Assembly (NCBI GenBank): GCA_951406725.2
Contig: OX597820.1
Span: 104,532,001-104,596,000 of the forward strand
From: Octopus vulgaris
Lineage: Eukaryota
Length of the DNA: 64,000 bases
Reading direction: 5' to 3'
Under the pieces are notes generated by a model that saw only the letters and a list, made by a program, of their open reading frames with translations, made no database searches and was not told the origin of the DNA. Shown here piece by piece: positions 10,996-63,088 of this stretch. How positions within the stretch are numbered: the first letter of the stretch is position 1; each line of letters opens with the position of its first letter. The position numbers and the translations under genes were made by a program.

Positions 10996-11989
10996 TGTAT
11001 GTATGTATGTATGTGTGTGTGTGTGTGTCAGTGCTTGTCCCCCACCACTGCTCGATAACTAGTGCTGGGGTGTTTACATCCCTGTAACTTAGTGATTTGG
11101 CAAAATAGATTGACAGAATAGGTATTAGGCTTTAAAAAATAAGCCAATCTCTTTGACTAAAACCCATGAAGGCAGTGCTCCAGCAAGGCTGCAGTCTAAT
11201 AACTGAAACAAGTAAAAAATAAAAGATAGCTATGTTCAACCCATCCCAGTATGGAACGTGGGTGTTAAATGATGATGATGAAATATTTTCATTAACAAAA
11301 TAACAAAATCTCAGACTTAATCTTTACTATATAGTGAAACCATGAATCACCTTTTAAACATTTAAATTTTTATTTTTAGTTTAATTTTTATTTTAAGAAA
11401 TCATCATTATTTTGTTAATTTTATCAAATTGCTATTTATAAACCATTTCTTCTCAAAATTTAGTTTTTCTTTTTTATATTTTATATCATCTCAGTTCTAA
11501 GAGCAAAAAGCTGTCAGAAATATTAGAACATCCTACTAAAAGCTCACAGCATTGGTTGCTACTTTATCTGACTTTGTGATCAAACACTAGAGATCAAACA
11601 AAGTATTTACTGGTACACACTGCACAGAAAGTTTAAAATTACTGACATCTTCTGCATTGAAAGTGTTAAAAAAATATAGAAAACCATTGCAATTTTTCAA
11701 GCACATTATTTACATTATTTACTATTGACAGCTTGTTTGTTGTTAACACAACATTTTGGCTGATACACCCTTCAGCCTTCATCAGGTGTCTTGGGGAAAT
11801 TTTGAACCTGGGTTCTCATTCCTAAGGTATTTTTTCGATGTTGTTGTTGTTATTATTATTATTATTCAGGTCACTGCCTGAAATCGAACTCAGAATCTTG
11901 GGGTTAGTAGTCCGCACTCTTAACCACTATGCCATATGCCCGTGGGCAGTTGTAGAGGTTCAGCATGACATCCACTGAGCCACTTCCTT

Positions 11990-13200
11990 GTGGATATAAT
12001 CAGTCCATTAGCAGGAAAGTCAACATCATACGTGAAGAATTCCACCTACTTCACAGAATTGATCAAGGATACCCCCATTGAATCCAACCAGATGGTGTGT
12101 CTAGATGTGATAATCCTGTTCACCAAAGTCCCAACTGGTGAAGCACTATCGGTTATTCAAGGAAAACTAGTGACAGACACCCATCTAAAAGAACGCACTA
12201 GTATACCAATAAGTAACTTGATGGAAATGTTGACTTTCTGTGTAGAAAGTACCTACTTCAGTATGGACACTGATATATATCGACAAGAAGAGGGTTTAGC
12301 TATGGGTTCACCATTGTCACCGATAATAGCCAAAATATACATTGAGAATTTGGCTTTAAGGTCAACACCACTAAAACCAACCCTATGGCTGCAATATGTT
12401 GATGACACCTTCATTCTCTGGTCCCACCAGAAAGATGTCCAAGTGCTGTTAGATCATGTGAACTCAATAAAGCCACCCATGCAGTTCACAATGGAAAAGG
12501 AAAAAGACAATCAGCTAGCTTTCCTGGACGTATTAATAACATGCACCAAGTATGGATTCAGATCCGTATACTGCAAGCTGACCTTCACTGGATGATACCT
12601 CAACTTCAACTCCCACCATCCATACAGTGTAAAAAGAAGGATTGCTCAGTTCCTAAAACATCGAGCAATGAATATAAGTAGCGATCGTGATACCCACCCC
12701 AAAGAAATGATCAAGCTCAGTAACAATCTATTAAGCAACAACTACCCCAAAAACATACTCTCCACTCCAATTATGTAGAGAGGATGAAACCGATAAACTG
12801 TCCACAATCTGTCTACCCTATGTGAAAGGCCTCTCCGAAAAGATACAAAAGATATGCGGCCCATATGACATCAGGACAGTATTCAAGAGTAATACGACAC
12901 TTCGCAAATATCTCTTTCCAGTAAAACCACCAATAGAAGAGAATATGACTATGAACTGCATGTACTCCATCCCATGTAATTGTGGTAGGTTATACAAAGG
13001 CAAAAGATGCCACCCCTTCAAAATAAGGGTAGAGCAGCATCGCAAAGCTGTGACATGGGGAGATATTGATAAATTGGATGTAGCTGATCATGTATGAAAA
13101 AATGGAGACCATCTCCCCCAGTGGGATGAAGTTAAAATAATAGACAGAGAACACCACTGGAAAATACAAAAACTAAAAAAGCAGCACATATGCTAGGACA
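11990..13200 (+). pseudogene. PLE reverse transcriptase / GIY-YIG endonuclease, interrupted by stops and frameshifts
   Basis: ORFs 11990..12595 and 12822..13097; homologous sequence continues past in-frame stops at 12593 and 13095. Confidence 0.88.
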
Positions 13201-13454
13201 CAACAACCTCCTAAGCAGATATGAACAGCATATGGGGTACCGGTATTAAGGAAGGATAGGAGAATATTAGATTTATAAGCCCTAAAATTCACCCCATAAT
13301 TGTCCACGGGCATATTTCATAGTGGTTAAGAGCGCGGGCTACTAACCCCAAGATTCCAAGTTTGATTCCAGGCAGTGACCTGAATAATAATTACAATAAC
13401 ACCAACAACAACAAAACCTTAGGAATGAGAACCCAGGTTTGAAATTTCCCCAAT

Positions 13455-13498
13455 ACACCTGATGAAGGCTGGAGGGTATATCAGCCGAAACATTGTGT
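13455..13498 (+). ncRNA. Minimal type I hammerhead ribozyme motif in PLE pseudo-LTR (mirror copy at 11746-11789, - strand)
   Basis: acac-CTGATGA-a-ggctg(gagggtatat)cagcc-GAAA-c-att-gtgt. The two copies together reconstruct GAAACGTT, with a palindromic ACGT stem III. Confidence 0.75.
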
Positions 13499-14969
13499 TA
13501 ACAACAAACAAGATGGGGACAAATGTCCATCAATTGTAAATAATGTACATAATTCCTCATCTCTTAAATATAGAACTGTATTAAATTTGTCAAGATCTTT
13601 AAGTATCACCAGTATGAATTTTCTAAATCATCAATAGGGGTTCTTTTTTATGGCACCACCAATAGTGAGGTCACCATGTTATTCTCAAGATTAAAATGCT
13701 TCCTCAACTGAGTGGAGATGTATATATATAGAGAGAGAGTGGAGCGAGAGAGAGGTAGTATTATGGTACATATTTAATAGAGGATCAGGTACTGGTTTCT
13801 TGTTGCACAGGCGATACATGGGTACCTTGCATTATATAAGGGTGAGTAGGAGTAATAGGGTTGAAGCTGGAAAGAGAAATAATGATAGTGATAAGGTGTC
13901 AGAGCACACCCCCAAGGTTCATAAGGAATTTTTTTTTTAGTTTTAAATTATATTTTTAAAAAAATCTCTAAGGCACCTTGATATCCATTGCTCTACCGCC
14001 TACGTACTCTGGCACACATCTTGACAACTATTGGCTTACAGTTGCCTTCAGTCTGGTTATATATCCTGTTTCAAATCCTGTCTAGACTTTCTTTACTTTC
14101 TTGTTATTTTCTTTACTTTTTTTTTTGTTGTTTTTAGTAAGTCATGGCAGTAACTGGATAAAATAAGTACTAGTGATATTCAATTTGACTTCAATTTTCA
14201 TTATCACTGAGTCATCCTTAAAAAATACCAGTAATACACTATACAATTCAATGAAAAACATCCCTCCTCTGCAAAGATTATCTTTGAGACCAGCCAAAAG
14301 AAATCTATATTGTTTTCATACCAATCTTTGAATGTCTTTTACAGAATCAAATTTTAATAATCTATTAGATGCATCTGCCCCCTCCTTTTTACAGTCACTA
14401 CCCTACTTTTTCCAAACTAGAGAATTCCAGTGGAGATATTAAGCAAAGTGCTTAAGTGTGGAATCAGGAAAGTGAGACACAAAAGTGGGTGATGAAAAGA
14501 GTGTCAGATAAATTTGGTGGATCTGAATGGAGAAAATATTCAGTTACTTGTTCAGACGTGCAGGGGTTCTTATAGTAGTATTAAAATAAGTAGAGAGAAA
14601 AGATTGGGAGAAACACCGCACCTGTGAGTGAAGGTGAGGTTATCAGTCAAATGGGATTTATCTAAATGTGTGTATAACATTGTTCGGATCTTTTCGGTTT
14701 GAACGGCAGTTTTTAACATAATTTCTAGGTAACTAAAAAATTTTAAACTTCATATACTGGTAAAATGTGTTTATAAAACATCTTTTTCTCTTGGCTTTAT
14801 TGACAAAATTCCATGCTGCATCTCAGAATGCAACACGGAATATTGTCAGTGAACAGGTCGCAGTCTCAAAGCGATGAAAATATTTTGACAAATTAAATTT
14901 AAATGTTGAAGTGAATCTAATGGATTTTGTGTCTTTCTTAAATGGCTTATAAAAACCTTCCACGCTGCA

Positions 14970-18600: not shown

Positions 18601-18660
18601 TTATATATATAAGATAAAAAACCAAGGCTGTATAGATATTAGAGTATTTATAAATAGAAA

Positions 18661-18712
18661 ATCTTACAGCTGTTTCTCGGATATTAATTAATAATATCCC
18701 TTCATCAGAGAC
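18661..18712 (-). ncRNA. Type I hammerhead ribozyme motif in a PLE 3' fragment (~18610-18900)
   Basis: Reverse complement reads gtct-CTGATGA-agggatatt(attaatt)aatatccga-GAAAC-agct-GTA-agat. Confidence 0.7.
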
Positions 18713-21325: not shown

Positions 21326-22202
21326 TCCTTGCAGGGTAATCTAAGATCGTCTATTAAAACTTAACTATTTGCTGCAACCTGATCCTACAGTTGCTGTTGT
21401 CGTAGACAGTGAATAGCAAATTCATTGAACAAACTGTCATCTACTTCGTTGTAATCTATAACTACTGTGTTCTCTTTGTCACCATTGTCTCCTGTTTGTT
21501 TACTGTGATGTCACCTTGGTGAATAACATACTTCACACCAATATACACGTGAGATTTTTACCTGCCTAATCAGGTTAGCTATTATGTTCTAGTTAGTTTT
21601 CTACCACCTCTTGACTATTTAAACAACACATAAAGGCTGAATCTTTCTCTATATGGTAGTAGGAGGTGGAATACAGCAATAATAAGGAAATGGAACTGAT
21701 TATTATTGCTTAAAAATGTCTTTTTATTAAGGTTCTTTGACCTTTTAATTGGCACAGGAGCAGACATGGCTGTGGGGTAAAAAGCTTGCTTCCCATCCAC
21801 ATGGTTCCAAGTTCAGTCCCACTGAGCAGCACCTTGAGCAAGTGTCTTCTATTATAGCCTCAAGCCAACCGAAGTCCTTTGAGTGAATTTGGCTGATAGA
21901 AACTGAAAAAAGCCCATCATACATACATTTCTATATATATATATATATTTTTACATACAAAATTTAAAGGACTGATCACTAAAAGTGGACGGTCAACATG
22001 CTAGATATAGACGTCAAATCGCTATTTTCCACGCTATTTTTTCGTGGAAAATAGCGATTTGACGTCTATATCTAGCATGTTGACCGTCACTTTTAGTGGT
22101 CAGTCCTTTAAATTTTGTATGTAAAAATATTTTAATCTTCGGATTTTTTTAATGTGCTAGGCCACTGGTTTTAATTGATTAATATCAATTTCTACCCAAA
22201 TT

Positions 22203-25402: not shown

Positions 25403-26692
25403 TCAGGTCATCCCATAAGTTCTGTCCGAATTTTGAATAAAGAAAACAAGTGATCAGATGTTATATTTAATTGTAATTTAATCATCAATGTACTTTCCCT
25501 GCTTATCTACAACTCCCTTCCATTTATTTGCAAGCTTCTTAATCTCATCAATGTAAAACTCTTTTGGTTTCCAAGCGAAGAACTCTGAAATGTCAGTTTC
25601 AACCTCCTCCTGGCTTGCGAAAGTTATGTCCCCCAAATGAGTTTGTAAGCTACGAAACAAATGGTAGTCTGTAGGAACAAGGTCAGGTGAATAAGGTGGA
25701 TGGGGAATTTTTTCCCAACCAAGCTCTTCGATCTTGTGTGATGTGATCTTTGCAGGGTGGGATCACACATTGTCCTGATGAAACATCACTCCTTTTCAAT
25801 TCACTAAAGCAGGTCTTTTTTTTACTTCAAAGCTTGGTTCAAACGCTCTAATTGTTGACAGTAGACTTGAGCATTAATTGTTGCATTAGGTGGTAACAAT
25901 TCAAAGTAAATTACTCCTTTGCAATCCCACCAGATAGAGAGAAGAACCTTTTTTCCATGAAGTTCCCTTCTTGGTTGTGGTTGAGCTTTTTCTCTTTTAC
26001 CAAGCCACTGTTTATGACATTTAGCATTTCGATAGAAGATCCATTTTCTGTCACCGGTCAGAAGTCTATCCAAAAAGGGTGAAATGAGTTTGCGAGAATG
26101 GAGAGAAGAGCAGATGTCAACTCGGGATTTGCGGTTGATTTCGGACAATTCATGAGGCACCCATTTTCCAACTTTAGGTACCTTTCCAAGTTGTTGAAGA
26201 TGACAATGAACAGTTGTATGGTTTGAACTAAGCTTTATCGCCAATTCCTCGACTGATAATGCAGGATTTTCTTCAAGTAATACCTCAAGGAGCTTATCAT
26301 CAAACTCAACTGGACGTCCTGTTTAACCTTCATCTTCAAGGCTGAAATCTCCACTTTTGAATTTTGCAAGCCATCTTCTGCAAGTTCTTTCATTCAAGCA
26401 TTCTTTCCCATAAACTGAGTGTATGTTTCGAGTCGCTTCGGCTGCAGAGTTTCCTTTTCTGCACTCATAAAGCATTATATGCCTCAAATGCTTTTTAGAT
26501 ACTTCCATGTTAGAAAGGGTTTTAATCAAAGAAATTTTAATTCTGTTATTCTGTAAAATAATATTTAATTAGTTTAAATGTACACAAATGCATAAAAATG
26601 ATTTTTAATTCCATTAGACATTCTAAAATACTATTAAATTTCATTCAATTTAAAAAAAGGTAAAATTGGACAGAACTTATGGGATGACCTGA
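25403..26692 (-). mobile_element. Full-length mariner (Tc1/mariner, DD34D) DNA transposon, decayed
   Basis: 25 bp TIRs tcaggtcatcccataagttctgtcc / ggacagaacttatgggatgacctga, TA on both sides, 1290 bp long. Confidence 0.95.
25478..26508 (-). pseudogene. Mariner transposase pseudogene
   Basis: MEVSKKHLRHIMLYE...GDFSLED, WVPHEL, TGDRKW, HQDNV*...HPPYSPDLVPTDYHLF with 34 residues between D2 and D3; split across ORFs 26323-26529, 25822-26244 and 25478-25660. Confidence 0.92.
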
Positions 26693-55800: not shown

Positions 55801-58800
55801 GTACAGAATAGACATTAAATGATAATGATGATGATGATACAGGCATGGCTATGTGGTTAAGAATTTTGATTCCCAACCACATTGTTCAGTTTCATTTCCA
55901 CTGTATGGCATCTTGGTTAAATGTCTTCTGTGCCACCTAAAGTCCATTTTATATGTGTGCGTGTGTGATTTTCTACTTCCCTCATGTTTTTGTGTACATT
56001 TTGCTTACTGGTCATAAACAATAGCTTTGCTATTGGTGTAATCTGTTTGCAGTCCACTATGAAAGCATGTTCAAGTTTCTTGATATGCCATAACATTTTT
56101 TATTCATTTTTAAAACATTTTTGTGATATTTGTAAACAAAAAGGTTTTCTTCAGCGTCATTTCTTTCCAATTCTTCCCATAAGCTTGTCTGAGCAGTTTG
56201 TTGTTTGGAAACAGGTGGAAGTTAGCAACAGAAATGGTAGCTGGTCAAAGAAAACTCTGCCCTACTTTCATCTGACTATGCAAGCTTGGAAAAGCAGACT
56301 GAGGAATTTAAATACAAGGTTTATAATTAGGAAAATTACAATTGCATTAATAAGAATTCATCTTAGACATTATGATAATTGGCTTATTTTGTTCTGGGGA
56401 TGCCAAGGTAATTGATGTGCTTGAGAGAAGATATAGCTGTTATATTTAGAAGTTAAGCTACAAACCCTTTCATTGAATCCATCATCAAACAATGTTCTAG
56501 ATATTTGTCAGCCTAATGTCATTTCATTCCACATCTCTTTCTACAGGACGCCTCTCCATTGTGCTGCATCTTGTAACAATTTATACATGGTGCAGTTATT
56601 AGTGAACCATGGTGCCTGTATATTTGCAACAACACTCAGTGACCATGAGACTGCTGCCAAGAAATGTGAGGAAGGTGAAGCTGGTTATGAGATATGCTCT
56701 GATTATCTTTACAGTAAGTTATTCACGTTAATATTATTTTATTCATTTAAACAGCTGCTTTATTTAAATGTTTGTTATTGATTTTTCCACAGATTAATGA
56801 CTGTTGTGTAAAATATACTAAATTGAATACTTAGATAATTTTATCTCAGAATGGCAATAATTGCTGTATTATTGAAAGCTAATCTCATTTCTGGAAAATT
56901 AGAAAGAAAATTTGGTATACACACACCCATGTGTGTGTGTGTAGATTCTTGAAGGGCTTTCTCCATGGATTTTTATACAAGAAAGTTTTACCATCTTCAC
57001 AGAAATTTTGGAAGCATATATTGCAACAGTTTAGCATTTAAAGGCCTACATTTATTTAATTACCTTCTAAAAGAATCTAAAAGATTTAACCATATTTTCC
57101 CTTAAGACATACAAGAAAAGTTGTGATGAAGAATAGTACTATATTTGACCCAAATAAACTATCAGTAAAAAGTTTTAAGTAGAATAAAGCAGTTTTCTTC
57201 AAATTATAGGTCAACCACACTACAATGCTAAATGTGACAAAGATTGATCCTCATCATATACAACAGTAAAGGTGTCTACAACAACAAAGACAGTCAGATA
57301 CATATTTTACTGAAATGAATATTGACAATCATTGTATATTATTTTAAAATATTGAATATTATATTTTTGTGGCTAAATCTGTAACAGTTCAATGTTTCTA
57401 TGATATTGACCTTCCCAGAGTTGGTAATTAACTGTGATAGTTCTGTCTGTTCTTGGATCATCATCATCATCATTTAACGTCCGCTTTCCATGCTTGCATG
57501 GGTTGGACAATTTGGTTGAGGACTGGCAAACCAGATGGCTGTACCAGACTCCAATCTGATCTGGCAGAGTTTCTACAGCTTGATGCCCTTCCTAACGCCA
57601 ACCACTCCGAGAGTGTATTGGGTGCTTTTACATACCACCGGCATGAGGGCCAGTTAGGTGGTACTGGCAACGGCCATGCTCAAATGGTGCTTTTTATGTG
57701 CCACCTGCACCATTTGAGCATGGCCGTTGCCAGTACCACCTAACTGGCCCTCATGCCGGTGGCACGTAATAGCACCCACTACACTCTCGGACTGGCTGGC
57801 ATTAGGAGTGGATGTGTAAGATATAGAATCTGGTTTCTCAGAGCAGCAAGACATTACCAATACCTTTCTCCCCAGTAAGAGTACTATATCTACTGCATGG
57901 TGAAGTGATATTTCAGTCTACACACCATTCAAGGTTGTGTACAATGTTATACATTTGGTTTAACAGTTTAAAGACATCAGTAATTTTATAGACCTCAGAT
58001 TTTACAATTGCTGTTTCAATAATTCTATACATCAGATTTCACCAACAGAATGTATTAGCAACTCTACACATCACAGCTTCTATAGTCATAGGTCCTCTCT
58101 GCCATAACCCACATCTGATGTATGAGGGGATGCTGAAAAGTTCCTGGCTTTCAGTAAAAGAAAATACAGGAGGATCAGTTAATTATGATTTATATACAAC
58201 ATATTCCCCTTTCAGATTCACACACTTGTTACAGCAGTCTTTCAGTTTTTCTAAGCCCTGTGAAAAAACTTGGAAGTTTGGGCCTCCAACCAGGCCTTTC
58301 ATGATACCCTCAATCCCAGGAACTTTTCAGCACCCTCTTGTATGTTGACCCAAGCTGAACGTTATTTCTGCTTTATCTTTAGTTAAACAAAAAAAGGCAG
58401 TTTTTACCAATTATTAACTAAACTACCTGCATGTTTTTTTTCTTTTTTTTCTTTTAGGTGTGCAAGAAAAACTTGGAATTGCCAATAATGGTAAAGTGTT
58501 TACAATATTTTCGTATGAAGCCCAGAATTCTGATGAACTCACCTTCAAGATAGGTGAAGAGATAACTGTCCTACGCAAGGGAGATGAGAATGAGAAAGAA
58601 TGGTGGTGGTCTCGTATTAAAAATCGTGAAGGCTATGTTGCTAGAAACATGATAGGAGTAAGTACTCTGCAGTTTTCATTTATTTTAATGACACAACTTA
58701 TCTCGATTTTCATTCTGTTAGGTACATATAAATGCTGGGATGGCTGTGTGATAAGCAGTTTGCTTCCCGACCACATGGTTCTCGGTTCAATCCCACAGTG

Positions 58801-59776
58801 TTGCATGTTAGGCAAGTGTCTTCTCTTGAAGCTTTGGGCCAACCAAAGGCTTGTGAGTGAATTTGGTTGAGAAAAATTTAAAGAAGTCCATCATATATGT
58901 GCATGTGTTGGTCCTTCACCACTAGCTGACAGCCACTGTTGGTTTGTTTATGTTCCTCATAACCTTGGGGGTTCAACAGACTAGCAGAATAAGTACCTGG
59001 CTTAAAAGTAAGTACAGAGGTTGATTTGTTTGACTAAAACCTTCAAGGTAATGTCCCAGCATGGCTGCAGTCCAATGACTGAAGCAAATAAAAGATGAAA
59101 GGTGCACAAGGTATTTGAGGACAGTTATATACTTACACAAAAATAACCCTTAGAAATGGACAATAATGCCTTTTTACTGAAAAAGGTTTTGAGGACAAGA
59201 GTAAACATATTATAAATCTCTGAACGAGATGTAAACAGTAACCGCTCAACAACGTAAAGTATACTAGCCATATCAATATGGCTAACCACTAAGGGTGGGT
59301 GTTACTGTAGCTTTTAGCCCCAGGAGATCATTGTCTCCAGCTGGCTTTAGGCACACTTTCTGTGCCCTTATGATATTTGCAAAGGGAGGTCATCCTCTCT
59401 CGTAACCTAAGCGATACGCACGGACTGCAGTTTCGAGTGCAGTCCGTGCTGTAGAAAATCGATCAATAAACGCCGTCCAACCCATGCTAGCATGGCAAAG
59501 TCGATGTTAAAAGGATCCTGATGTAATGCTTATTTTCATCTGTCTAACTAGCTATACATTGTATTTGCATTCATGTATACACATTTCTGTTTGTAGGTAT
59601 TTTACTAATGTATACATTTTTGTTTATCTACCCAATTAGCTATTTGTGTTTGTATTTATTTATGTATAAGTGAATTTATATAGCTATATGTATCACTCAT
59701 TGCATCTTATTTGCTTTTGTTTTTTCAGTTACAACCAAGAATACTGGCAGAGGAAAGCCGTTGGTCAAACAGCTAA
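38728..59776 (+). CDS. ASPP: ASPP-family protein (apoptosis-stimulating of p53 protein; TP53BP2/PPP1R13B co-ortholog), 5'-partial, join(38728..39004,42935..43134,46535..48364,53843..53976,56547..56713,58458..58657,59729..59776)
   Basis: Seven exons with AG/GT boundaries and compatible phases (1,0,0,2,1,0) join into 2856 nt, i.e. 951 aa plus TAA. The translation matches the ASPP2 coiled coil ([35 protein letters not shown] vs [36 protein letters not shown]), [18 protein letters not shown], ankyrin repeats and SH3. Confidence 0.95.
39772..39930. repeat. Compound (TA)n/(TG)n microsatellite (similar runs at 21180-21325, 22906-23015, 28105-28243, 52730-52840, 60595-60785)
   Basis: Direct observation. 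Confidence 0.95.
42420..42713 (+). mobile_element. Non-autonomous Helitron
   Basis: 5' end A|TCTTTATATATAAAA; subterminal GC hairpin ccc.agcaacgcc.ggg and a CTAG-like (TTAG|T) 3' end; A/T insertion site with no TSD. Confidence 0.65.
42935..43134 (+). CDS. ASPP: ASPP exon, coiled coil ([33 protein letters not shown]...[10 protein letters not shown])
   Basis: Acceptor tcttcag|AT and donor GCG|gtaagt; 200 nt; matches ASPP2 FQQKQRELVLAVSKVEELTRQLE...AELDRL. Confidence 0.93.
45973..46396 (+). mobile_element. Young, full-length SINE family A copy
   Basis: CpGs retained; complete head and (gtaaaaga)n tail. Confidence 0.9.
46535..48364 (+). CDS. ASPP: ASPP large exon (610 codons): end of coiled coil, disordered linker, SILK-like and RVxF motifs, start of ankyrin region
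   Basis: Acceptor tatatag|CTG (LHNKLNEQQ, cf. LRNKLNQEQ) and donor CGT|gtaagt; contains ORF 46571..48409 with [19 protein letters not shown] and KSLLK...[19 protein letters not shown]. Confidence 0.95.
49352..49518. repeat. (CT)n/(CACT)n polypyrimidine microsatellite
   Basis: Direct observation. Confidence 0.9.
52152..52722 (-). mobile_element. PLE 3' fragment (end of GIY-YIG plus pseudo-LTR with decayed hammerhead at 52262-52298)
   Basis: Minus-strand [23 protein letters not shown]...[16 protein letters not shown] resembles a PLE GIY-YIG C-terminus; tatatc-ATGAATA-gcgattgc-GAAAC-cg-GTC-gatata; embedded in (TA)n. Confidence 0.7.
53843..53976 (+). CDS. ASPP: ASPP exon, ankyrin repeat ([45 protein letters not shown])
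   Basis: Acceptor ttatccag|GTA and donor TG|gtaaga; canonical ASPP ankyrin motif GITPLHNA. Confidence 0.95.
54290..54790 (+). mobile_element. RTE-clade LINE 3' fragment with (GAT)n tail
   Basis: [33 protein letters not shown]...[12 protein letters not shown]...MDREVWR, followed by gatgatgatga. Confidence 0.88.
56547..56713 (+). CDS. ASPP: ASPP exon, ankyrin repeats ([55 protein letters not shown])
   Basis: Acceptor ctacag|G and donor TACA|gtaagt; [12 protein letters not shown] motif as in ASPP2. Confidence 0.95.
58123..58340. mobile_element. Tc1/mariner-derived MITE
   Basis: TA-tgaggggatgctgaaaagttcctgg ... ccaggaacttttcagcaccctcttg-TA. Confidence 0.78.
58458..58657 (+). CDS. ASPP: ASPP exon, SH3 domain ([66 protein letters not shown])
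   Basis: Long polypyrimidine tract, ttttag|GT acceptor and GGA|gtaagt donor; SH3 signature DELTF...EWWW...EGYV.RN. Confidence 0.95.
59729..59776 (+). CDS. ASPP: ASPP last coding exon ([15 protein letters not shown])
   Basis: Acceptor gttttttcag|TTA, phase 0; LQPRI aligns with ASPP LYPRI; TAA at 59774-59776. Confidence 0.85.
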   Translation, partial: LQPRILAEESRWSNS

Positions 59777-60627
59777 CAGAGTTAGCCAGCCAAAGTTGTT
59801 TTGTTACACTTTAATTTATACTCACTGTAGTCATCTTAATCTTGATCTGATACATGCTCATCCCTGTTATCATCATCATCATCATCAATCATTGGTAATA
59901 GAATACTTGTGTTTCTGTAAATATTCGATTAGTTTGGCTACAGTTGAGTTGGTTTACAGACACATTTGAACAATAACAAAGCACAACAGAACTGTCTCTG
60001 ATTACTTACTCCAATGACAGTGATCAATCAAACCACATTCATTTGTTACCCCACATTCAACCATCTCATTAAGAAATCATTATATATATATGTATATATA
60101 TATATATATATATCTGTATAATAAAACATAACTCTATAATATTTCCTTTGATTTCTTTAATCTGTTTGTCAATCCCTCAACTACATTTAAAACACTGCTC
60201 ACTCTCCAAGCTACTGGTCATTCTGTACACTACTAGTTTCTTTATCATTTTTCATTTGTTTGTTTTGACTCCTTTCCTACATTGGTAGGGCTGTTAACAT
60301 TCTATATCTGCTGGAAGGTTGGCAAATCAAGGTGCTCAATTAAGCTGGAGCTTGTTTGAAATTTAAGTCAAGTAGAGACTTAGCAGGGTGGAAAGGGATT
60401 AAGATGGATCAGAATAGGGTTGGTCATAGTAATTCAGTTGCTTGAAGTTAGCGGCTAGGGTGGGCCCAAAATGCTTATAGACTTTAATAGCTTTGTTTAC
60501 TACTATAAATGAAAAATTACTGTAATCTGTAACATTTTCCCCTTAATTTGTCACTGTAATCCTTATCAGTTACACCTCTCCTTTACACATACATACATAA
60601 ATATATAATATATACATGCATGTATAC

Positions 60628-60660
<33 letters not shown>

Positions 60661-60915
60661 TCTATGTATGCATATATATATATATATATATATATACATC
60701 CACACACACATATGTATGTATCCACATATATATATGTATATATATGTGCATGTATGTATGGAGATATATATAAATATATATAATATGGGGGTTTAGTTCA
60801 TGGATAAACAACTAGGTATGCTAGATAAGTACTGTAATGGATTACTAGGGCTCCACGGTTATAGCCAAGGTGGTAGTTATGGAGCCATTGCAGATTTCTG
60901 ATTTAGTGGATATAT

Positions 60916-61538
60916 AATTGTTTAAGGGGACAACAAACGTTAAGGCAAGACAAACATCTCAAGTCATATACATTATTATTATTATTGGAAAAAAATTCAA
61001 AGTCTTACAGCTACTTCTGAGATATTTCATCATCGGAGACAAAAGGGAAAATAAGAAGGATATAAATTAATGAAATGACGACATAGAGGACAGGAATAAA
61101 GGAATAAGGAGATGAAGAAAAGGAAGCATAAAAGTTCACAGTTCAACTTCCAATCATGTAGAAGTCAGTCTAAGTCCTTAGGTGCAATCCTGCGTAAATC
61201 CATGTAGGTTAAAATCCTGACCACTAAAAATAAATAAATGGATTTATGCAGGATTGCGCCTAAGGACTTACGGACTGACTTCTACATGATTGGAAAGTTG
61301 AACTGTGAACTTTTATGCTTCTTTTTCTTCATCACCTTATTCCTTTACTCCTGTCCTCCATGTTGTCATTTCATTAATTCATACCCTTCTCATTTTCCCT
61401 ATTTGTCTCTGATGATGGAATATCCCATACTCTGGGATATCCCAGAAACAGCTGTAAGTCTTTAAATTTTTTTCCAATAATAATGTGTGTGACGTGAGAT
61501 GTTTTACCTTGCTTTAAAGTACGTTGTCCTCTTTAACA

Positions 61539-61542
<4 letters not shown>
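60916..61542. mobile_element. Pair of inverted PLE-type pseudo-LTRs (arms ~60916-61203 and ~61238-61542) with no ORF
   Basis: Arms are reverse complements (e.g. caatcatgtagaagtcagtc / gactgacttctacatgattg); each has a hammerhead motif, decayed in the left arm at ~61002-61040; flanked by TA/CA runs. Confidence 0.8.
61405..61460 (+). ncRNA. Type I hammerhead ribozyme motif with intact core
   Basis: gtct-CTGATGA-tggaatatccca(tactc)tgggatatccca-GAAAC-agct-GTA-agtc. Stem II is 12 bp with one mismatch, stem III is palindromic, and the cleavage triplet is GUA. Confidence 0.8.
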
Positions 61543-61576
<34 letters not shown>

Positions 61577-63082: not shown

Positions 63083-63088
63083 AATAAA
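63083..63088 (+). promoter_or_regulatory. Candidate poly(A) signal for ASPP (alternative candidate at 60120-60125)
   Basis: AATAAA followed by T/GT-rich sequence. AATAAA is common in this AT-rich DNA, so the call is weak. Confidence 0.3.

What the first reader, a model, noticed from the sequence alone, without database searches (positions are those of the whole stretch)
60916..61542. ~600 nt fold-back with an intact-core, sense-strand hammerhead ribozyme 1.1-1.8 kb downstream of the ASPP stop codon
Seen: two ~290-300 bp inverted arms separated by ~34 nt. The right arm has CTGATGA, a 12 bp stem II, GAAAC-agct-GTA and stem I gtct/agtc (one mismatch) at 61405-61460 on the ASPP strand. The antisense copy in the left arm is decayed (CCGATGA, GAAG, shortened stem II). 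Known: PLE pseudo-LTRs carry minimal type I hammerheads with palindromic stem III that can cleave as dimers, and coleoid cephalopods edit dsRNA heavily via ADAR. Inference: if the ASPP 3' UTR reaches here (AATAAA candidate at 63083), the mRNA has a long dsRNA stem that pairs poorly around the ribozyme. That could act as a switch between hairpin (edited or stable) and self-cleaving folds, or as a co-transcriptional cleavage/termination aid.
Basis: partly seen in the sequence, partly recalled or inferred. Interest (0 to 1): 0.72.

Follow-up and report, generated by a model that had tools for sequence, protein, structure and literature searches.

The report
Inverted Penelope retroelement end near ASPP
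The 600-base hairpin behind this gene is the doubled, mirror-image tail end of a common Penelope-type jumping gene, and the self-cutting RNA motif inside it is predicted to be locked in the hairpin, so it is likely an ordinary insertion scar rather than a gene switch.

Summary
The fold-back and the hammerhead motif are real. The arms are 60915-61206 and 61235-61542, 259 of 285 aligned columns identical, folding z = -33.7. They are two head-to-head copies of the 3' end of a repeat with at least hundreds of arms in this genome. Longer copies run into a decayed RT plus C-terminal GIY-YIG frame with Hydra-clade Penelope signatures. 13 of 27 unbiased insertions also carry an inverted arm. One arm ends at a short site and the other about 140 nt further on: the Penelope one-sided tail. 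The switch reading is not supported. The 5' core and the cleavage triplet pair with the left arm (P about 1.0), and forming the hammerhead costs about 46 kcal/mol. Stem I carries a rare break, no same-family sense partner for dimer cleavage lies in the window, and no constraint is visible. A textbook-like polyadenylation signal lies at 60120, upstream of the element. Whether any ASPP transcript includes the hairpin stays open. The scan found this kind of element before on other DNA of this genome. Verdict: new family member of a known kind, low interest.

The parts
59729..59776 (+). Last coding exon of the ankyrin-SH3 (ASPP-like) host gene, ending in TAA
   Evidence: Sequence (acceptor ttttcag); stop ends at 59776; Ank and SH3 in the two preceding exons
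60116..60175 (+). Proximal polyadenylation signal: TGTA directly before AATAAA (60120-60125), then a T-rich downstream stretch
   Evidence: use as the main poly(A) site is inferred
60761..60782 (.). (TA)n run at the left insertion boundary
60783..60914 (-). One-sided 'tail' (about 132 nt here, about 140 nt in the family) on the left arm only, ending at the family's long 3' end
60915..61221 (-). Left arm: antisense copy of the element's 3' end (pLTR region); 61207-61221 is family sequence without a partner in the right arm
   Evidence: 6.3% from the family majority
61002..61040 (-). Damaged hammerhead of the left arm (CCGATGA, 17-nt stem II deletion between ATATCCCA repeats, GAAG), with a perfect stem I
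   Evidence: the same deletion recurs in one other insertion
61207..61234 (.). Hairpin loop and inversion junction; two overlapping AATAAA start at 61229 and 61233
61235..61542 (+). Right arm: sense copy of the element's 3' end, ending at the family's short 3' end (TTTAACAATTA)
   Evidence: 7.5% from the family majority
61405..61460 (+). Type I minimal hammerhead motif: stem I 3 of 4 bp, stem II 11 of 12 bp, palindromic ACAGCTGT stem III; predicted cut after A61456
   Evidence: cleavage untested
61543..61575 (.). (CA)n run at the right insertion boundary
63083..63088 (+).

Best explanation
This is a 5'-truncated insertion of a Penelope-like retroelement with Hydra-clade signatures, made of two head-to-head copies of the element's 3' end in a TA/CA microsatellite, and its hammerhead is the element's standard terminal motif, predicted to be locked in the duplex and likely inactive here. 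Shown: family membership, arm geometry, two fixed 3' ends, the link of longer copies to RT and endonuclease remnants, and the microsatellite target. Inferred from PMC11167929 and PMC8557442: the GIY-YIG endonuclease cut both strands of the TA-rich site; reverse transcription started at two internal sites of the element RNA about 140 nt apart, one per DNA end; both cDNAs stopped after about 300-440 nt and were joined head to head. That gave one short-ended and one tailed arm. The copy has since decayed at the family's ordinary rate. Predicted: whichever strand is transcribed, the antisense arm comes first and captures the sense arm as it emerges, so the ribozyme fold is not reached. At most the hairpin is a passive ADAR substrate in read-through RNA.
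For: Repeat family: 1839 first-look candidates, with the best other copies 82-91% identical; 235 exact genome matches of one 19-mer against 0 for the reversed control. Six of 15 loci picked by the endonuclease region carry pLTR sequence downstream of it (L031, L033, L034, L036, L039, L042). L076 shows the order RT (FDITMG..LYTDD), CxCX5C, YYTG, LLNKH, pLTR piece, tail, matching the Hydra description and alignment in PMC8557442 (compared by eye). Inverted arm in 13 of 27 insertions picked by a motif outside the core. Of 100 arm hits, 39 end at the short site and 38 at the long site; of 35 head-to-head pair rows, 21 are long+short, 0 long+long, 1 short+short, 13 truncated or mid-tail. Divergence is ordinary: 7.5% and 6.3% against a median of 7.8% in 59 arms. 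Of 70 arms, 14 keep core plus perfect stem I, better than this copy. Hammerhead fold costs 46.5 kcal/mol in the full hairpin, 41 with all left-arm A read as G, and 11.7 with all left-arm A unpaired. Metazoan minimal hammerheads showed no monomer cleavage (PMC4209133); the Anolis PLE hammerhead needed the element's protein (PMC11167929).
Against: The right-arm core letters are all canonical, which holds for only 25 of 70 arms. One 101-nt contig of another organism (X16, 4 differences, no gap, depth 8.2) spans the left arm's deletion, while the nearest other sampled arm differs at 18 places, so the insertion has likely persisted across a species split. Pfam support for the endonuclease is weak (GIY-YIG E 0.047, below cut-off; RT piece no hit), and no full-length copy was found. 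Folding models do not score the hammerhead's tertiary contacts or protein help.
Confidence: 0.9

Rival explanations
1. Passive element with a real side effect: a long ASPP 3' UTR isoform or read-through RNA includes the hairpin, ADAR hyper-edits it, and this alters that isoform's stability or nuclear retention. The hammerhead plays no part.
For: The duplex is long and stable. Octopus has exceptionally high hyper-editing and dsRNA potential, and a lizard Penelope is heavily edited (PMC5625713 passages). Run X1 holds 0.50 of the sampled words of 59730-61530, while a transcript ending at 60145 explains at most 0.22.
Against: There is a textbook-like proximal poly(A) signal at 60120, and further AATAAA at 61095 and in the loop (61229, 61233) could end a long isoform before the right arm is complete. 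Differences in the laid contigs show no A>G excess (1 A>G of 6, 8 and 3 changed places in X1, X3 and X6) and coincide with family alleles also seen in X16.
Confidence: 0.25
2. One reading: a domesticated 3' UTR switch in which the RNA toggles between the edited hairpin and a self-cleaving hammerhead fold, or the ribozyme aids termination.
For: Canonical core letters on the ASPP strand; the left arm's deletion leaves 61425-61449 poorly paired. Precedent: Clec2 3' UTR hammerheads (PMC6155905 passages). Two contigs from two studies stop at 61456, the predicted cut (X1 54 nt with 0 differences; X3 64 aligned nt with 5 differences), which is a weak hint at most.
Against: C3-A9 and G16.2-A17 are paired to the left arm at P about 1.0, with a 46.5 kcal/mol penalty. 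Stem I is broken at a position intact in 26 of 30 copies. Stem III has 2 bp and needs a dimer; the only other family relative in the window is on the minus strand (18708). There are 2 differences from the majority in 56 nt against 4.2 expected, P=0.20. The 40-mer through core and stem II is identical at 11 genome places, so the X1 contig cannot be assigned to this locus. The canonical U4 may itself be CpG decay: arms of one insertion differ C/T in 7 of 13 pairs and are never C/C.
Confidence: 0.04
3. It is a non-autonomous retrozyme or a MITE-like fold-back DNA element that moves as a unit.
For: The unit is short and non-coding, with many copies; two direct pairs about 1.05-1.08 kb apart are among the 100 listed 19-mer matches.
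Against: Inversion points and arm lengths vary from copy to copy while the 3' ends are fixed, and longer copies continue into RT and endonuclease remnants. That pattern fits 5'-truncated retrotransposition, not a fixed unit.
Confidence: 0.04

Closest known systems
Hydra clade of C-terminal EN+ Penelope-like elements (Craig et al. 2021, PMC8557442), including Hydra-1_Obim of Octopus bimaculoides
   Same: C-terminal GIY-YIG, CxCX5C linker, CxxC..E..N..CxH, divergent RT4(B), (TA)n targets, 3' hammerhead with palindromic stem III; many listed Hydra hammerheads have a mismatch at the base of stem II (U.U), as this family has C.A.
   Different: Not Hydra-1_Obim: its listed hammerhead differs, and four short motifs of this family have 0 hits in the supplement (long lines there were cut or wrapped). 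Stem II is 12 positions against 3-7 in the listed Hydra motifs, core position 4 is C in about 45% of copies, and the tail is about 140 nt.
Inverted-pLTR plus tail insertion structure of EN+ PLEs (Adineta Pen2a, PMC3846280; Anolis PAc, PMC11167929)
   Same: Head-to-head inverted 5'-truncated copy, tail on one arm only, AT-rich target.
   Different: The tail is about 140 nt against the 30-40 bp given in those papers.
Minimal type I hammerheads of metazoan PLEs (Cervera and de la Pena 2014, PMC4209133)
   Same: Long stem II, short stem I, palindromic stem III needing a dimer; pairs on opposite strands 100-700 bp apart were already noted there.
   Different: Lacks the G10.1-C11.1 closing pair (U-A here); stem I is broken in this copy.
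Domesticated hammerheads: Clec2 3' UTR, RECK/CTCL introns (PMC6155905)
   Same: A hammerhead motif on the sense strand near a host gene's 3' end.
   Different: Those are conserved across distant species; this one sits in a decayed high-copy repeat, shows no constraint and is paired to its own antisense copy.

Membership tests
Hydra-clade PLE | GIY-YIG endonuclease C-terminal to RT | tested here: met
   Order RT, linker, EN, pLTR piece, tail in L076; Pfam GIY-YIG only E 0.047, below cut-off. Tested on family copies, since this insertion has no ORF.
Hydra-clade PLE | CxCX5C linker | tested here: met
   CNCRSGTDC and CNCRSGNVC in 2 of the 3 longest copies; decayed in the third
Hydra-clade PLE | [quoted passage not shown] | tested here: met
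   CELCVKE..LLNKHNE..CKH in L019; similar in several of L031-L045 (output partly cut)
Hydra-clade PLE | CCHH motif absent from EN | tested here: inconclusive
   None seen by eye, but all copies are decayed
Hydra-clade PLE | Divergent RT4(B) of the FDVTMG..AEVCELVG type | tested here: met
   FDITMGLSNSAQVTDLVGLFL..GLYTDDAL against the Fig. S7 alignment, compared by eye
Hydra-clade PLE | DKT and RWK motifs near the N-terminus | tested here: inconclusive
   The 3 longest copies fetched are 5'-truncated before that region
Hydra-clade PLE | Single ORF, element under 3 kb; placement in the RT tree | not tested
   No full-length copy fetched; no reference sequences on hand for a tree
Hydra-clade PLE | Insertion into (TA)n | tested here: met
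   Most of 43 scored arm ends run into TA, CA, TG or CT microsatellites; this copy sits between (TA)n and (CA)n
EN+ PLE insertion structure | Inverted 5'-truncated copy and one-sided tail | tested here: met
   13 of 27 insertions inverted; 21 long+short, 0 long+long, 1 short+short of 35 pair rows. The tail is about 140 nt, longer than published.
Minimal type I hammerhead | CUGANGA, GAAA, NUH core with palindromic stem III | tested here: met
Minimal type I hammerhead | G10.1-C11.1 pair closing stem II | tested here: not met
   U-A here; C.A in 48 of 73 arms. Listed Hydra and PLE-X motifs also carry U.U or C.A there.
Minimal type I hammerhead | Match to an Rfam hammerhead model | tested here: not met
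   0 hammerhead families among 64 and 7 matches; the window's other PLE hammerhead (13459) was missed too
Minimal type I hammerhead | Self-cleavage | not testable with these tools
   Needs an in vitro assay
Domesticated 3' UTR hammerhead (Clec2 type) | Conserved above neutral expectation | tested here: not met
   2 differences in 56 nt against 4.2 expected, P=0.20, and one of them breaks stem I. Power is low and the orthologous right arm was not seen.
Domesticated 3' UTR hammerhead (Clec2 type) | Present in the host mRNA | tested here: inconclusive
   contigs only, RNA status guessed

The most novel reading that the evidence does not exclude
A long ASPP 3' UTR isoform reads through the proximal signal and carries the 600-nt hairpin; ADAR hyper-editing or an RNA-binding protein opens the duplex enough for the hammerhead to fold and cut, so a Penelope scar became an editing-gated self-cleavage switch on a p53-pathway mRNA in an octopod.
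Probability: 0.04. Interest if true: 0.72.

Novelty: new member of a known kind. Interest (0 to 1): 0.16.

Why it matters
As found, it matters little for ASPP: it is one of many Penelope insertion scars. Two general points follow. First, head-to-head geometry puts the antisense arm first on either strand, so such scars are predicted to silence their own ribozyme and to feed ADAR instead. This may help explain why they are tolerated near genes and why octopus RNA is rich in dsRNA (inference). Second, the family's two fixed ends about 140 nt apart, used one per arm, extend the two-start-site model shown in vitro for PAc to a Hydra-clade element with a much longer tail, which can be tested. If the switch reading were true, it would be an editing-controlled ribozyme in an animal mRNA; the five literature searches run here returned no such case, but they were not aimed at it exhaustively.

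Tried and rejected
Rfam: no hammerhead model hit at either sensitivity. Sequencing runs: no RNA holder listed on record; RNA status is a guess for all. Laying X1, X3, X6 and X16 on 60790-61540: no listed piece spans the stretch. The three RNA-guess runs have no cover at 61024-61049 (the left arm's deletion) or 61232-61257 (the junction), and at 60927 and 60950 almost all their depth carries the family allele, so what was laid comes from other copies. A hole proves nothing: a hyper-edited or hard-to-copy hairpin would also leave one. Protein search with the RT piece among longer proteins: 0 of 504 candidates at E<=0.001. The ESM Atlas gave unnamed clusters at 0.96 and HTH_animal/RVT_1 clusters at 0.93-0.95, leads only. 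Naiad clade considered and rejected: EN is C-terminal here and a hammerhead is present. Subfamily explanation of the C4/U4 split: the best linked site has Fisher P 0.001 uncorrected, and arm pairs are discordant, so it is not resolved; G5-to-A is rare (3 of 75), which simple CpG decay does not predict. Hairpins before the two 3' ends: the consensus fold of 25 tails returned no structure, and single-sequence hairpins are weak (-1 to -8.5 kcal/mol in 6 of 25 folded), so this is not claimed. The dimer fold of the isolated motif is 6 kcal/mol above the best dimer fold. Search of earlier findings by this sequence: nothing. No paper was found on the U4C variant; the cost of losing G10.1-C11.1 is recalled, not read. 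Supplements of the bioRxiv preprint were not seen and may list related families.

Full report
Observation. The window at 60915-61542 folds back on itself. The arms 60915-61206 and 61235-61542 share 259 of 285 aligned columns, and the RNA fold is -397.5 kcal/mol with z -33.7. The right arm holds GTCT CTGATGA, stem II, GAAAC AGCT GTA AGTC at 61405-61460 on the gene's strand. The upstream gene ends in ankyrin and SH3 exons and a last exon at 59729-59776. Rfam has no hammerhead hit here.

It is a repeat. The right arm gave 1839 first-look candidates in the own genome; the 40 scored were 82-91% identical apart from itself. One 19-mer just before the core occurs exactly 235 times, and 0 times read backwards. 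Copies share 3' ends and vary at the 5' side. Two copies continued 840-940 nt upstream into the end of a reading frame. A search with that part gave 41 matches from 197 candidates, and 6 of the 15 loci fetched carry pLTR sequence downstream. In L076 the order is RT motifs, CxCX5C, GIY-YIG-like YYTG, LLNKH, a pLTR piece and the tail. These match the Hydra clade as described in PMC8557442 (section 11 read; supplement alignments; hammerhead table), compared by eye. Profile support is weak because the copies are decayed. That paper lists one octopus Hydra family, whose hammerhead differs from this one.

The fold-back is the family's normal insertion shape. Thirty loci picked by the 19-mer are 27 insertions, and 13 carry an inverted family piece upstream. 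Over 75 loci, less 7 duplicates, 77 of 100 arm hits end at one of two fixed points about 140 nt apart. Of 35 head-to-head pair rows, 21 pair a long with a short end, none pair two long ends, one pairs two short ends, and 13 have a truncated or mid-tail arm; three loci give more than one row, and the first 30 loci were chosen by likeness to this copy. In the window the left arm has the tail and the right arm the short end, between (TA)n and (CA)n. Inverted copy, one-sided tail and microsatellite target are the published PLE signature (PMC8557442 passages; PMC3846280 passages). PMC11167929 (parts 1-2 of 4 read) showed in vitro that the tail is the stretch between two internal RT start sites; applying this here is inference. 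The tail here is about four times the 30-40 bp reported.

The hammerhead is not special. This arm is 7.5% from the family majority against a median of 7.8%. Of 70 arms covering the motif, 25 keep the canonical core and 14 keep core plus perfect stem I. This copy has lost a stem I pair that 26 of 30 unbiased copies keep. It has 2 differences in 56 nt, P=0.20 against neutral. Core position 4 is C in 14 of 30 copies and in 13 of 31 exact 40-mer matches. The two arms of one insertion differ C/T in 7 of 13 scoreable pairs and are never C/C (4 duplicate rows and 2 unscoreable loci dropped from 19 rows). So the left arm's CCGATGA is a family allele, and the right arm's canonical U4 may be CpG decay; the rarity of G5-to-A is unexplained. 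The base of stem II is C.A in 48 of 73 arms, like the U.U or C.A in the published table.

Could it cut? In the full hairpin, C3-A9 and the GUA triplet with the 3' stem I strand pair with the left arm at P about 1.0; only 61425-61449 pairs loosely. Forcing the hammerhead costs 46.5 kcal/mol, against 14.7 in the right arm alone. Reading all left-arm A as G leaves 41.0, and forbidding them to pair leaves 11.7; editing would also hit core adenosines of the right arm (inference). Stem III has two pairs and needs a second sense copy, and the only family relative in the window is on the other strand. Minimal PLE hammerheads showed no monomer cleavage and low dimer cleavage (PMC4209133, parts 1-2 of 4 read), and the Anolis one needed the element's protein. 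The antisense arm lies 5', so no co-transcriptional window is expected. These are model energies without tertiary contacts.

Is it in the mRNA? This is open. AATAAA at 60120 has TGTA before it and a T-rich stretch after it; others lie at 61095, 61229, 61233 and 63083. One RNA-guess run holds 0.50 of the words of 59730-61530, more than the 0.22 that a transcript ending at 60145 explains. Laying 4 of the 24 listed runs on the element showed short contigs of other family copies and no A>G excess. Two contigs from two studies stop at 61456, the predicted cut. This is a weak hint for the family, not for this locus, because the same 40-mer lies at 11 places and contigs do not show ends. One contig of another organism spans the left arm's deletion with 4 differences, against 18 for the nearest other sampled arm, so the insertion likely predates a species split. 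Octopus hyper-editing of repeat dsRNA is documented (PMC5625713 passages), so editing is plausible if the hairpin is transcribed.

Comparison and verdict. It works like, and by the testable features belongs to, the Hydra clade of Penelope-like elements; DKT, RWK, full length and tree placement remain untested. It fails the one test available for a domesticated hammerhead such as Clec2 (PMC6155905 passages). The bioRxiv preprint 10.64898/2026.07.22.740005 (passages) does not mention octopus. One search for Penelope, octopus and hammerhead together listed two papers; PMC6962438 was seen only as a listing. Earlier notes of this scan describe similar elements on other DNA; they are leads, not support. 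Verdict: new family member of a known kind, interest 0.16.

Noticed in passing
family-wide; window 60783-60914: The tail between the two fixed 3' ends is about 140 nt, roughly four times the published 30-40 bp, and head-to-head insertions use one end per arm (21 long+short, 0 long+long).
   Followed up: yes
window 61410; loci L046-L075: Hammerhead core position 4 is C in about 45% of copies; arm pairs are often discordant and never C/C, while G5-to-A is rare (3 of 75), which simple CpG decay does not explain.
   Followed up: partly
window 11705-13553: A second PLE, by recalled motifs Penelope/Poseidon-like, in an intron of the same gene: RT remnant (PF00078), GIY-YIG-like end, inverted terminal repeats and a hammerhead motif at 13459 (+).
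   Followed up: partly
window 18652-18712 (-): A more distant relative of this family's hammerhead (74% over 65 nt) with the same GAAAC AGCT GTA, antisense to the gene.
   Followed up: no
window 36831 (-), 10838 (+), 38377 (+): Further hammerhead-like core matches in a relaxed scan; stems not checked.
   Followed up: no
window 21945-22130 and 57590-57807: Two shorter near-perfect fold-backs (94% and 88% self-identity) in introns.
   Followed up: no
window 61229-61238: Two overlapping AATAAA sit in the hairpin loop and could end a read-through transcript before the right arm is made.
   Followed up: no
window 25478-26568 (-): Decayed frames resembling a mariner/Tc1 transposase (label recalled, no call).
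   Followed up: no
G000 C3:28792973/28794024 and C6:50725487/50726567: Direct pairs of the family 19-mer 1051 and 1080 bp apart, probably partial tandems forming pLTRs.
   Followed up: no
L076:4500-5030 and related loci: The family's RT-EN linker carries long Asn/Thr-rich trinucleotide runs, like the N-rich inserts described in Adineta Penelope ORFs (PMC3846280 passage).
   Followed up: no
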